Positions 26,611-27,615 of a stretch of DNA of 64,000 nt are shown here, one piece after another. Location of the stretch: NCBI GenBank assembly GCA_951406725.2, contig OX597814.1:161944001-162008000 (forward strand). The letters are read 5' to 3'. Position numbers: made by a program. Each line of letters begins with the position of its first letter. Position 1 is the first letter of the stretch. This DNA comes from Octopus vulgaris (lineage: Eukaryota).

Positions 26611-26656
<46 letters not shown>

Positions 26657-27577
26657 AATAAATCTCTGAGCGAGATATAAACAGTAACTGCTCTATAACA
26701 TAAGGGGGATCAGCCATCTGACTGTGGCTATGGTCAGGGCGGGGTGGTGGGGGTGTTACTGATGCATTTAGCCCCAGGCGAACATCAACGTCACCAGAAG
26801 GGCTGACACCATCTCGGTGTCCTTGCCAGCCTGCAAAGGGAGATCAGCCTCCCCGAAGATACGGATACTACATACGGACTGGTTTCGAGGTTATTGCCTC
26901 ATTATTGTTTTCGAACGGATTTTCTACGCCAGTGACTGTGGTTACTGTGAAAATCTATATATCCAGCCTGTAGAGGAAGTCCCTCAACGAAGAGCGGTGC
27001 TTACCATACGTTGACAAGAGGCAATAACCTCGAAACCGGTCCGTATGTAGTATCCGTATCTTCGGGGAGGCTGATCTCCCTTTGCAGGCTGGCAAGGACA
27101 CCGAGATGGTGTCAGCCCTTCTGGTGACATTGAAGTTCGCCTGGGGCTAAATGCATCAGTAACACCCCCACCACCCCGCCCTGACCCTAGCCATATTCAG
27201 ATGGCTGATCCCCCTTATGTTATAGAGCAGTTACTGTTTATATCTCGCTCAGAGATTTATTATTGTTTTCGAACGGATTTTCTACGCCAGTGACTGTGGT
27301 TACTGTGAAAATCTATATATCCAGCCTGTAGAGGAAGTCCCTCAACGAAGAGCGGTGCTTACCATACGTTGACAAGAGGCAATAACCTCGAAACCGGTCC
27401 GTATGTAGTATCTGTATCTTCGGGGAGGCTGATCTCCCTTTGCAGGCTGGCAAGGACACCGAGATGGTGTCAGCCCTTCTGGTGACGTTGATGTTCGCCT
27501 GGGGCTAAATGCATCAGTAACACCCCCACCACCCCGCCCTGACCCTAGCCACATTCAGATGGCTGATCCCCCTTATG

Positions 27578-27615
<38 letters not shown>

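What the first reader, a model, noticed from the sequence alone, without database searches (positions are those of the whole stretch)
26652..27582. Retrozyme / non-autonomous Penelope-like element: 358-nt hammerhead-bounded tandem unit inserted in (TA)n
Seen in sequence: a GC/CpG-rich 931-bp block between two TA tracts, made of ~1.9 direct copies of a 358-nt unit (26901-27258; 27259-27582) differing at only a few positions, preceded by a 249-bp inverted copy. Each unit holds one hammerhead. Established: metazoan retrozymes are non-coding tandem units of a few hundred nt with type I hammerheads that yield circular RNAs; Penelope-like elements carry hammerheads in their pLTRs and often insert as partial tandems with an inverted 5' copy. 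Inference: transcription and cleavage at 27041 and 27399 would release an exact 358-nt monomer (27042-27399) that could circularise and be copied by a PLE reverse transcriptase in trans. High copy identity implies recent activity. I am not aware of such a family described in cephalopods but cannot check.
Basis: partly seen in the sequence, partly recalled or inferred. Interest (0 to 1): 0.9.

Follow-up and report, generated by a model that had tools for sequence, protein, structure and literature searches.

The report
Hammerhead-carrying Penelope-type repeat in octopus
A young, non-coding 931-bp insertion in an octopus (TA)n microsatellite is built from 358-nt units that each carry a variant hammerhead ribozyme and has the layout left by Penelope-like retrotransposons, so it is a new example of a known kind of mobile element and not a new kind.

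Summary
Positions 26652-27582 are a GC- and CpG-rich block between two (TA)18 tracts. It consists of a 249-nt inverted, 5'-truncated copy followed by 1.9 direct copies of a 358-nt unit. Each direct unit carries a type I hammerhead-like motif that would cleave after 27041 and 27399.

The motif is not canonical. Its core reads UUGACAA (U3-A8 in place of C3-G8), and Rfam finds no hammerhead even at E<=10. A generic descriptor still matched only these two sites in the window, with 0 hits in 200 window shuffles and 0 in 20,000 unit shuffles. The U3-A8 covariation is already reported for Penelope-like-element (PLE) hammerheads (PMC4209133).

The layout matches published PLE insertions: upstream inverted truncated copy, partial tandem, 42-nt extension at one end, (TA)n target (PMC8557442). 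The unit is non-coding.

My best reading is a single PLE-mediated insertion of a retrozyme-like hammerhead RNA, roughly 1% diverged per copy. Genomic copy number, an autonomous partner, cleavage and circular RNA could not be tested. A pair of severely truncated 3' ends of a longer PLE remains a live rival. I score it a new member of a known kind, of moderate interest.

The parts
26616..26652 (.). Left (TA)n flank, 37 nt: target microsatellite, possibly one half of a target-site duplication
   Evidence: tract list; sequence
26652..26900 (-). Inverted, 5'-truncated copy of the unit (unit coordinates 118 to 358 plus 8), lying upstream of the direct copies
   Evidence: I1: 249 nt, 98% complementary to 27018-27266; 6 mismatches in 249
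26652..26693 (-). 42-nt extension ('tail'): the inverted copy runs 42 nt further into the unit than the right-hand end does (reverse complement of 27225-27266)
   Evidence: arm coordinates and junctions; compared with the 30-40-bp tail described for PLE insertions in PMC8557442 section 6
26877..26900 (-). Truncated hammerhead remnant (helix II to C17 only; lacks the helix I 5' strand and the UUGACAA box; G-to-A change in the helix III loop at 26880)
26901..27258 (+). Direct unit 1, 358 nt
27005..27047 (+). Hammerhead 1, type I: helix I 27005-27010 / 27042-27047; core 27011-27017 (U3...A9); helix II 27018-27021 / 27028-27031 with a 6-nt loop; GAAA 27032-27035; palindromic helix III 27035-27040; C17 at 27041; predicted cleavage between 27041 and 27042
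   Evidence: descriptor hit; shuffles; unconstrained MFE forms helices I and II
27259..27582 (+). Direct unit 2, partial (324 of 358 nt), ending in TATA microhomology with the flank
27363..27405 (+). Hammerhead 2, identical to hammerhead 1; predicted cleavage between 27399 and 27400
27042..27399 (+). Predicted 358-nt monomer between the two cleavage sites; helix I extends into a 42-pair imperfect stem (27042-27092 with 27321-27368)
   Evidence: MFE -123.1 kcal/mol, z -4.5, 0 of 100 shuffles as stable; minus strand z -1.4
27579..27614 (.). Right (TA)n flank, 36 nt

Best explanation
The block is the product of one retrotransposition event carried out by Penelope-like-element (PLE) machinery, that is RT plus a GIY-YIG nuclease supplied in trans. 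The event inserted a non-coding, hammerhead-bearing RNA with a 358-nt period into a (TA)n microsatellite of an octopus genome. In today's terms this is a retrozyme-like, non-autonomous PLE derivative.

Shown by the sequence:
- The unit, its 1.9 direct copies and the upstream inverted 5'-truncated copy.
- The TA target.
- The lack of coding capacity.
- A complete type I hammerhead motif with a compensated U3-A8 core in each direct unit, on the strand that the PLE layout predicts to be the sense strand.
- A strand-specific stable fold in which helix I continues into a long stem.

Inferred:
- The nicked (TA)n 3' end annealed to the UAUA at unit coordinates 321-324 and primed cDNA synthesis.
- RT copied 682 nt (1.9 periods) through two uncleaved or religated hammerhead sites. 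The template was therefore a circular monomer copied by rolling circle or a multimeric transcript, not a cleaved linear monomer.
- The inverted copy arose by snap-back or second-end priming, leaving 42 extra nt at the left end.
- A transcript crossing both hammerheads could pair their palindromic helix III segments (ACCGGU) into a double hammerhead, cleave after 27041 and 27399, and release a 358-nt RNA able to circularise.
- The three copies have since each gained about 1% private changes, 3 of 7 of them CpG transitions. That puts the insertion at a few million years old.
For: Geometry.

Hammerhead: one search finds 2 sites, both in the direct units and none elsewhere in 128 kb (both strands). 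One search finds 0 of 200 window shuffles and 0 of 20,000 unit shuffles with a site. Every core position checked by the descriptor fits (U4 G5 A6, A9, G10.1-C11.1, G12 A13 A14, A15.1-U16.1, C17 in a GUC triplet). Positions 3 and 8 change together to a Watson-Crick U-A.

Precedent: U3-A8 in place of C3-G8 is reported in about 1,300 PLE-associated hammerheads of Schistosoma. A short palindromic helix III with action as a dimer is the rule for metazoan type I and PLE hammerheads (PMC4209133, passages).

Fold: the unconstrained MFE of 27042-27399 reproduces helices I and II and extends helix I to 42 pairs with 4 G-U pairs. The plus strand has z -4.5 (0 of 100 shuffles as stable) and the minus strand z -1.4 (9 of 100). 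Cofolding two ribozyme segments gives an intermolecular 6-bp helix III, -26.5 against 2 x -10.8 kcal/mol.

[quoted passage not shown] The hammerhead strand places the inverted copy on the 5' side, as that layout requires.

Target: TA tracts make up 1.3% of the window. The right junction shares TATA with the flank.

Single event: all 7 differences in the 207-nt region covered by three copies are private (3, 1 and 3), and 3 of 7 are CpG transitions.

Non-coding: the longest ORF in a trimer of the unit is 72 aa, with 15-17 stops per frame.

Young: the copies are 98-99% identical whereas the other repeats listed for the window are 67-88% (the 45 longest of 169 self-matches); CpG o/e is 0.65 against 0.22.

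Host has PLEs: the O. vulgaris repeat annotation lists 31 Penelope-like families with 336 insertions in one of its tables (PMC13282606 passages).

Concept: retrozymes as non-autonomous PLE derivatives (PMC7229834 passages; preprint 10.64898/2026.07.22.740005, sections 3, 14 and 16).
Against: Rfam finds no hammerhead family here at gathering score or at E<=10.

There is no covariation evidence, because the two complete motifs are identical.

Self-cleavage of this U3-A8 motif is untested, and PLE hammerheads tested in vitro cleaved weakly (PMC4209133 passages).

Only one locus is available. No other copy lies in the 64-kb window. Two protein-collection proxies for dispersed copies found nothing related: one search gave no candidates, and the 3 hits are short low-complexity stretches in proteins of 1760-3500 aa.

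No PLE ORF lies in the window. The only RVT_1 matches among the 10 ORFs scanned are fragments at 62853-63260 and 15327-15611 that share no sequence with the unit.

GC of 50% is above the <45% quoted for metazoan retrozymes (PMC7229834 figure legend).

The array has fewer than two full units, so the 358-nt period can also be explained without a 358-nt template (see rival 1).

The left junction shows about 1 nt of microhomology, so how that end was joined is open.
Confidence: 0.6

Rival explanations
1. The block is two severely 5'-truncated copies of a longer, possibly autonomous, PLE whose 3' end is at unit coordinate 324 (...GTTATA). RT copied the last 358 nt (27225-27582), jumped to the 3' end of a second template and copied its last 324 nt (26901-27224). 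The nascent cDNA then snapped back to make the inverted copy. On this reading the hammerhead is simply the pLTR ribozyme of that PLE, and the 358-nt 'unit' is an accident of two truncation points, not a retrozyme monomer.
For: [quoted passage not shown] The array has only 1.9 copies, so the period is defined by a single junction. The right end lies at the same unit coordinate (324) as the would-be internal junction 27224|27225, and it shows TATA microhomology with the target, as expected for a true RNA 3' end primed on (TA)n. Hammerheads lie 'near the 3'-ends' of PLEs (Fig. 1 legend, PMC8557442). No dispersed 358-nt copies could be shown.
Against: It needs two independent truncations at nearly the same length (324 and 358 nt). 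The inverted copy spans the putative junction (reverse complement of 27018-27266), so it must be a secondary copy of the already joined cDNA. The monomer folds into a strand-specific stable structure (z -4.5), as reported for retrozyme RNAs (PMC7229834 passages), although most of that stability comes from the local extended helix I and so fits either model. No RT or GIY-YIG sequence adjoins the block.
Confidence: 0.25
2. The block is a DNA transposon of foldback or MITE type, with long terminal inverted repeats of about 207-249 bp, inserted at a TA dinucleotide in a TA tract. The hammerhead-like motif is incidental.
For: The outer parts of the block are inverted repeats (I2: 26694-26900 against 27376-27582, 207 nt, 98%). 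It is flanked by TA. Mariner-like ORF fragments occur elsewhere in the window (the mariner label is from recall, and Pfam gave no hit).
Against: The tips are not inverted repeats of each other: the left end carries 42 nt with no counterpart at the right end. A TIR model does not explain the internal 358-nt head-to-tail repeat. A complete hammerhead motif in each direct unit did not arise in 20,000 unit shuffles. The fold is strand-specific, which points to an RNA.
Confidence: 0.05
3. The block is a local DNA-level rearrangement, a tandem and inverted duplication produced by replication slippage or fork stalling in a microsatellite-rich region. It was never mobile, or it reflects an assembly artefact at a complex repeat.
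For: The region is extremely rich in microsatellites. PMC8557442 notes that complex PLE insertions cause assembly problems. There is only one locus.
Against: The block differs sharply in composition from its surroundings (GC 0.50 against 0.36; CpG o/e 0.65 against 0.22), which indicates imported sequence. It interrupts a pure TA tract cleanly. It carries a non-chance ribozyme motif. The three copies differ by private substitutions, which collapsed or duplicated reads would not produce.
Confidence: 0.05

Closest known systems
Metazoan non-LTR retrozymes (Cervera & de la Pena 2020, PMC7229834; Li, Clavereau & Pollet 2026 preprint 10.64898/2026.07.22.740005)
   Same: Non-coding head-to-tail units of a few hundred nt (the published range is about 150-450 bp and this unit is 358). 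There is one type I hammerhead per unit. Helix I is 6 bp, helix II is 4 bp, and helix III is short and palindromic. The predicted monomer is self-paired. PLEs are the proposed mobilisers. It meets the preprint's working definition of an active retrozyme, a type I HHR in all tandem repeats, as a dimer-class locus.
   Different: The core is U3-A8, not C3-G8. GC is 50% against the <45% quoted. There are only 1.9 units and a single locus. An inverted 5'-truncated copy and a (TA)n target accompany the array, features that the passages I read describe for PLEs and not for retrozyme arrays. Circular RNA and copy number are unknown.
Minimal/variant hammerheads in pLTRs of Penelope-like elements, especially the U3-A8 variant of Schistosoma Cercyon PLEs (Cervera & de la Pena 2014, PMC4209133)
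   Same: U3-A8 core covariation, a G10.1-C11.1 pair, a small palindromic helix III that implies action as a dimer, and location in a PLE-type repeat.
   Different: [quoted passage not shown] No RT/EN ORF is attached. The host is a cephalopod. I could not see the figures or supplements that show the Schistosoma sequences.
Canonical PLE insertions (Penelope/Poseidon, Neptune, Hydra, Naiad; Craig et al. 2021, PMC8557442)
   Same: Partial tandem, an inverted 5'-truncated copy adjacent to the 5' end, an extension of tens of bp at one end, and insertion into a microsatellite, with (TA)n named as a preferred target.
   Different: There is no RT or GIY-YIG ORF and the period is 358 nt, not 3-4 kb. In the text I read, a (TA)n preference is stated for Naiads, which lack canonical hammerheads and are described as old remnants in cephalopods. 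The clade of the mobilising PLE is therefore open.
Rfam Hammerhead_1 loci annotated in the giant squid genome (PMC6962438)
   Same: They show that hammerheads do occur in cephalopod genomes: 235 loci are reported.
   Different: Those loci match the Rfam model and this motif does not. That paper gives no repeat or PLE context.

Membership tests
Hammerhead ribozyme, type I | Three helices around the core, with helices II and III closed by loops and helix I open (type I topology) | tested here: met
   Descriptor hits at 27005-27047 and 27363-27405. The unconstrained MFE forms helices I and II.
Hammerhead ribozyme, type I | Invariant core C3 U4 G5 A6 N7 G8 A9 ... G12 A13 A14 ... A15.1-U16.1, H17 | tested here: inconclusive
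   All positions fit except 3 and 8, which are U and A. This is a compensated pair reported in natural PLE hammerheads (PMC4209133). Whether this particular motif is active is unknown.
Hammerhead ribozyme, type I | Match to the curated Rfam hammerhead covariance models | tested here: not met
   0 matches at gathering score in the window. No hammerhead among the 12 matches at E<=10 on 26600-27640.
Hammerhead ribozyme, type I | Site-specific self-cleavage | not testable with these tools
   Needs in vitro transcription of a monomer and a dimer construct.
Metazoan non-LTR retrozyme | Head-to-tail units of about 150-450 bp | tested here: met
   Period 358, 1.9 copies, 98% matches.
Metazoan non-LTR retrozyme | A type I hammerhead in every tandem unit | tested here: met
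   Both direct units carry the motif. The inverted copy holds only a truncated one.
Metazoan non-LTR retrozyme | No protein-coding capacity | tested here: met
   The longest ORF in a unit trimer is 72 aa, with 15-17 stops per frame.
Metazoan non-LTR retrozyme | Family of many dispersed copies or arrays in the genome | not testable with these tools
   No eukaryotic DNA collection was open. There is no second copy in the window and the protein proxies were empty.
Metazoan non-LTR retrozyme | Expressed as a self-cleaved, circular, highly paired RNA | not testable with these tools
   Prediction only: MFE -123.1 kcal/mol, z -4.5, 62% of bases paired as a circle.
Metazoan non-LTR retrozyme | Low GC content (<45%, PMC7229834 figure legend) | tested here: not met
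   GC is 0.50.
Penelope-like element (autonomous) | ORF with an RT and a GIY-YIG endonuclease | tested here: not met
   No ORF longer than 83 aa overlaps the block. No non-repetitive ORF of 150 aa or more adjoins it. Hence it is non-autonomous or truncated.
Penelope-like element (insertion signature) | Partial tandem (pLTR) with an inverted 5'-truncated copy adjacent to the 5' end | tested here: met
   The orientation agrees with the hammerhead strand. Described in PMC8557442 section 6.
Penelope-like element (insertion signature) | 30-40-bp extension ('tail') at one end only | tested here: inconclusive
   The left end carries 42 extra nt. The text I read does not define the tail precisely enough to equate the two.
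Penelope-like element (insertion signature) | Insertion bias for microsatellites, (TA)n | tested here: met
   Both flanks are pure TA tracts of 37 and 36 nt, against a TA-tract share of 1.3% of the window.
TIR DNA transposon / MITE | Termini that are inverted repeats of each other up to the tips | tested here: not met
   The left tip has 42 nt with no counterpart at the right tip.

The most novel reading that the evidence does not exclude
This locus may be a direct structural footprint of PLE machinery integrating a roughly 358-nt hammerhead circle or multimer. That would be a retrozyme caught with the full PLE insertion signature: an inverted truncated copy, a tail and a (TA)n target. It would add integration-site evidence to a retrozyme-PLE link that, in the papers I read, rests on phylogeny and co-occurrence. 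The ribozyme also belongs to a U3-A8 class that neither Rfam nor CUGANGA-based descriptors can see. PLE lineages that target (TA)n and are reported to lack canonical hammerheads, such as Naiads, might therefore carry this hidden class.
Probability: 0.12. Interest if true: 0.6.

Novelty: new member of a known kind. Interest (0 to 1): 0.38.

Why it matters
If a genome-wide search confirms it, octopuses would join the animals that carry hammerhead retrozymes. The element would also be one whose ribozyme escapes the standard detectors, both Rfam and CUGAUGA-based descriptors, so counts of such elements in cephalopods and other invertebrates may be too low.

The locus is also a clean and recent example in which a short hammerhead unit shows the complete insertion layout of Penelope-like elements inside a (TA)n tract. 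That bears on how retrozymes are mobilised. In the papers I read the link is argued from shared ribozymes, co-occurrence and pLTR phylogeny.

It introduces no new principle. Each ingredient is already described: tandem hammerhead units, the PLE link, the U3-A8 core, the TA target and the inverted copy.

Tried and rejected
Rfam. The whole window at gathering score gave 0 matches. The element at E<=10 gave 12 matches, all weak miRNA, snoRNA or sRNA hits on the TA tracts or below their gathering scores, and none a ribozyme. I take the mir-297 hit (35 bits against a gathering score of 90) to be a TA-repeat artefact.

CTGATGA box search. There were 17 matches in the window, none in the element, against 13.5 expected by chance. 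Five lie in a 26-nt minisatellite at 45300-46291. I inspected it and it is not a hammerhead (no descriptor hit).

Other copies in the window. blastn with word size 7 and E<=10 found only the three known copies plus chance hits of 27 nt or less.

Dispersed copies by protein proxy. The search for homologous proteins with the 70-aa minus-strand ORF gave no candidates. The search of protein representatives with the 72-aa plus-strand ORF gave 3 hits with E<=0.001, all stretches of 16-24 residues in proteins of 1760-3500 aa, which I judge to be low-complexity matches. These proxies are weak, and their silence says little about copy number.

tRNA or SINE origin. ARAGORN found 0 genes in 26000-28200.

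Bacterial-type promoter and terminator scan. This is not meaningful for an animal genome and I disregard it.

Pfam on 10 of the window's 71 ORFs of at least 90 aa, chosen as not low-complexity. It found only two RVT_1 fragments, far from the element. I did not establish whether these RTs are LINE or PLE type; the LINE label is from recall of motifs.

Not checked:
- Any eukaryotic genome, Dfam or Repbase, since none is on hand.
- Metagenome contigs and viral contigs, which are closed.
- Genome contigs, which holds prokaryotes only; I did not use it because it is not relevant.
- Supplementary files of the papers, which are closed. The supplementary figures of PMC4209133 (U3-A8 motifs), supplementary file S1 of PMC8557442 (PLE consensus sequences including cephalopods, with HHR_core flags) and the tables of the 2026 preprint could already contain this family or this motif class.

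Claim of 'not in print'. This rests. Papers holding 'retrozyme' with 'octopus' number 3, and with 'cephalopod' 2. They are Craig et al. 2021 in two versions and one paper on unrelated LTR elements, which I judged from its listing only. One search was badly designed (min_terms 2) and is uninformative.

Age estimate. There are 7 private differences in 3 x 207 nt, which is 1.1%. I scaled this by hand with the calibration quoted in PMC13282606 (JC 0.09 is about 25 My), giving about 3 My. The Poisson uncertainty is wide, roughly 1-6 My. This is an inference, not a computed result.
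Full report
WHAT IS THERE

The window is AT-rich (GC 0.36), CpG-depleted (observed/expected 0.22) and full of microsatellites. Its best protein clue to origin is a LINE-type RT fragment at 62853-63260 (minus strand). 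The top two matches of that fragment are Octopus vulgaris proteins at 88% and 82% identity; the next best hit listed is 59% (182 proteins with E<=0.001, the best 120 listed).

At 26652-27582 a 931-bp block with GC 0.50 and CpG o/e 0.65 interrupts a pure TA tract. There are 37 nt of (TA)n on the left (26616-26652) and 36 nt on the right (27579-27614). TA tracts of six or more repeats occupy 1.3% of the window (833 nt in 32 tracts), so landing in one is not what a random insertion would do.

REPEAT ANATOMY

The repeat finder, TRF and my own comparison agree.
- Unit 1 is 26901-27258 (358 nt).
- Unit 2 is 27259-27582 (324 nt), with 4 mismatches to unit 1.
- 26652-26900 is the reverse complement of 27018-27266 (249 nt), with 6 mismatches.

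The inverted copy therefore covers unit coordinates 118 to 358 and 8 nt beyond. It is 5'-truncated at its inner end and reaches 42 nt further into the unit at its outer end than the right-hand direct copy does, which stops at unit coordinate 324.

In the 207 nt covered by all three copies there are 7 differences, and every one is private to a single copy: unit 1 has three, unit 2 one and the inverted copy three. Three of the seven are CpG transitions. That star-like pattern is what one insertion event followed by independent decay would give, at about 1.1% per copy.

Scaling by the calibration quoted for octopus repeats (JC 0.09 is about 25 My; PMC13282606 passages), I estimate a few million years. 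The calculation is by hand and the error is wide.

The block is the youngest repeat in the window. Among the 45 longest of the 169 self-matches that one search found, every other repeat pair is 67-88% identical.

THE RIBOZYME

Rfam reports nothing for the window at gathering score. It reports no hammerhead among the 12 matches at E<=10 when the element alone is searched. The element has no CUGAUGA box.

There is nevertheless a complete type I hammerhead architecture on the plus strand of each direct unit:
- a 6-bp helix I (27005-27010 with 27042-27047);
- the core heptamer UUGACAA (27011-27017);
- a 4-bp helix II that opens with G10.1-C11.1 and is closed by a 6-nt loop;
- GAAA;
- the palindrome ACCGGU, which serves as a minimal helix III;
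- a GUC triplet, with cleavage predicted after 27041, and after 27399 in unit 2.

Only positions 3 and 8 depart from the consensus, and they change together from C-G to U-A.

I wrote a generic descriptor that allows either pair and a wide range of helix and loop sizes. It matched only these two sites in both strands of the 64-kb window. It matched nothing in 200 dinucleotide-preserving shuffles of the window and nothing in 20,000 shuffles of the unit. The descriptor was written after I had seen the candidate, which inflates the apparent significance somewhat. With zero hits in tens of megabases of shuffled sequence, chance is still not a serious explanation.

The U3-A8 covariation is not new. 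Cervera and de la Pena found it in PLE-associated hammerheads of Schistosoma (about 1,300 hits). They also describe the short palindromic helix III, the G10.1-C11.1 pair and action as dimers as typical of metazoan and PLE hammerheads, with weak cleavage in vitro (PMC4209133, passages read).

The two complete motifs here are identical, so there is no covariation evidence from within the locus. The inverted copy begins exactly at G10.1. It lacks the 5' strand of helix I and the core heptamer, and it also has a G-to-A change in the palindrome.

RNA FOLD

The 358-nt RNA between the two predicted cleavage sites (27042-27399, plus strand) folds to -123.1 kcal/mol, against -97.1 +/- 5.8 for 100 shuffles (z -4.5, none as stable). 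Its complement gives z -1.4, with 9 of 100 shuffles as stable.

Without any constraint, the minimum-energy structure contains helices I and II of the hammerhead, leaves the core unpaired, and extends helix I into a 42-pair imperfect stem (27042-27092 with 27321-27368). That stem includes 4 G-U pairs, which would be mismatches in the complementary strand.

The one difference between units that falls in this stem (27055, C or U) keeps the pair as G-U. Folded as a circle, the monomer has 62% of its bases paired.

Two ribozyme segments cofold with an intermolecular 6-bp helix III at -26.5 kcal/mol, against -21.6 for two separate monomers. This is the double-hammerhead arrangement expected for such motifs. 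All of this is prediction.

WHAT MADE THE INSERTION

The layout is the one described for Penelope-like elements. Insertions are heavily 5'-truncated and organised in partial tandems. [quoted passage not shown] The target-site duplication varies in length because the two strand cleavages are variably spaced (PMC8557442: section 6; passages).

Here the strand of the hammerhead and the strand of the stable fold both identify the plus strand as sense. That places the inverted copy on the 5' side, as the PLE layout requires.

The right junction shares TATA between the unit and the flank. This fits priming of cDNA synthesis by a nicked (TA)n end annealed to UAUA in the template. The left junction shares about 1 nt, so that end was probably joined differently, by snap-back or second-end priming. 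The near-equal flanks (37 and 36 nt) could be a duplication of about 36 bp or the two halves of one tract of about 73 nt. I cannot tell which.

The block has no coding capacity. The longest ORF in a trimer of the unit is 72 aa, with 15-17 stops in every frame. No RT or GIY-YIG ORF adjoins it. It is therefore non-autonomous or truncated.

The four are the outer ends at unit coordinates 324 and 8, and the 5' ends at 26901 and 27018. The direct part also runs through two intact hammerhead sites. The template was therefore not a cleaved linear monomer. It was either a religated circle copied for 1.9 turns or an uncleaved multimer, or the period arose in another way.

TWO READINGS OF THE 358-NT PERIOD

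Reading 1, which I prefer (0.6): a retrozyme-like RNA with a true 358-nt unit.

Reading 2 (0.25): the last 358 nt and the last 324 nt of a longer PLE whose 3' end is at unit coordinate 324, joined by a template jump, with the inverted copy made by snap-back across that junction.

With fewer than two full units at a single locus, the sequence alone cannot decide between them. The strand-specific stability comes mostly from the extended helix I, which is local and fits both readings. Reading 2 needs two independent truncations at almost the same length and a secondary copy of the joined cDNA. Reading 1 needs internal priming on a circle or multimer.

A DNA-transposon reading fails because the tips are not inverted repeats of each other and the tandem repeat is left unexplained (0.05). 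A purely local duplication or an assembly artefact fails on composition, on the clean interruption of the TA tract and on the private substitutions (0.05).

WHAT IS KNOWN, AND NOVELTY

- Tandem hammerhead units of 150-450 bp that yield circular RNAs are established as metazoan non-LTR retrozymes in cnidarians, mussels and axolotl, with PLEs suggested as mobilisers (PMC7229834, passages).
- A 2026 preprint argues from co-occurrence and pLTR phylogeny that animal retrozymes are non-autonomous PLE derivatives. It sampled 31 vertebrates and 4 invertebrates, and its text never mentions molluscs (0 occurrences of 'mollus') (10.64898/2026.07.22.740005; sections 3, 14 and 16 and passages).
- PLEs are annotated in octopus, including 31 Penelope-like families with 336 insertions in one table (PMC13282606), and in other cephalopods (PMC8967140).
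- Rfam annotation of the giant squid genome lists 235 hammerhead 1 loci (PMC6962438).
- My searches found no paper that describes a retrozyme or a PLE hammerhead family in octopus or other cephalopods. Supplements were closed and Repbase/Dfam are not on hand, so the family may already be catalogued.

I therefore rate this a new member of a known kind. Its modest points of interest are these:
- The ribozyme is invisible to Rfam and to CUGANGA-based descriptors.
- A short hammerhead unit is seen with the full PLE insertion signature in (TA)n.
- In the text I read, the (TA)n preference is stated for Naiads, a clade reported to lack canonical hammerheads and to be only remnants in cephalopods. Which PLE mobilised this element is an open and testable question.

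VERDICT

- Observation: confirmed.
- Interpretation: partly supported. The class is right. Activity, circular RNA, family size and partner are unshown, and one specific rival remains.
- Interest: 0.38.

Noticed in passing
window 45300-46291: A roughly 1-kb minisatellite with a 26-nt unit (TRF periods 26, 52 and 105; 69-76% matches) that runs into a SINE-like tail. It holds 5 of the window's 17 CTGATGA boxes, but these are variants of the repeat unit and no hammerhead descriptor hit lies there.
   Followed up: yes
window 62340-63260 (-) and 15327-15611 (-): Reverse-transcriptase fragments (Pfam RVT_1, E 3.6e-14 and 1.9e-4). The first is 88% identical to an Octopus vulgaris predicted protein. 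They are probably LINE remnants; the LINE-versus-PLE call was not tested, and they share no sequence with the hammerhead unit.
   Followed up: partly
window 16678-16911, 23968-24196, 30779-31017, 43317-43540, 47479-47717: A dispersed repeat family of about 235 bp in both orientations, 80-88% identical between copies; likely a SINE. It was not classified.
   Followed up: no
window 7405-7651, 37306-37558, 51899-52152, 56919-57162: A second dispersed family of about 245 bp, 77-87% identical, often adjoining TA tracts. It was not classified.
   Followed up: no
window 32-1146, 12796-13611, 23017-23957, 31331-32103: A 0.7-0.95-kb interspersed repeat in four copies (75-80% identical, both orientations) with short ORFs that resemble each other. 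Three ORFs inside copies of this repeat (79-378, 23311-23727, 31090-31743) gave no Pfam match. A transposase-like look is from recall only.
   Followed up: partly
window 28825-29237: A very long (TATG)n microsatellite, about 105 copies at 90% matches. It produces the window's longest, purely artefactual, multi-frame ORFs (28769-29362).
   Followed up: no
window 27572-27633 (-): A weak Rfam mir-297 match (35 bits against a gathering score of 90) on the right-hand TA tract; a repeat artefact, not a miRNA.
   Followed up: yes
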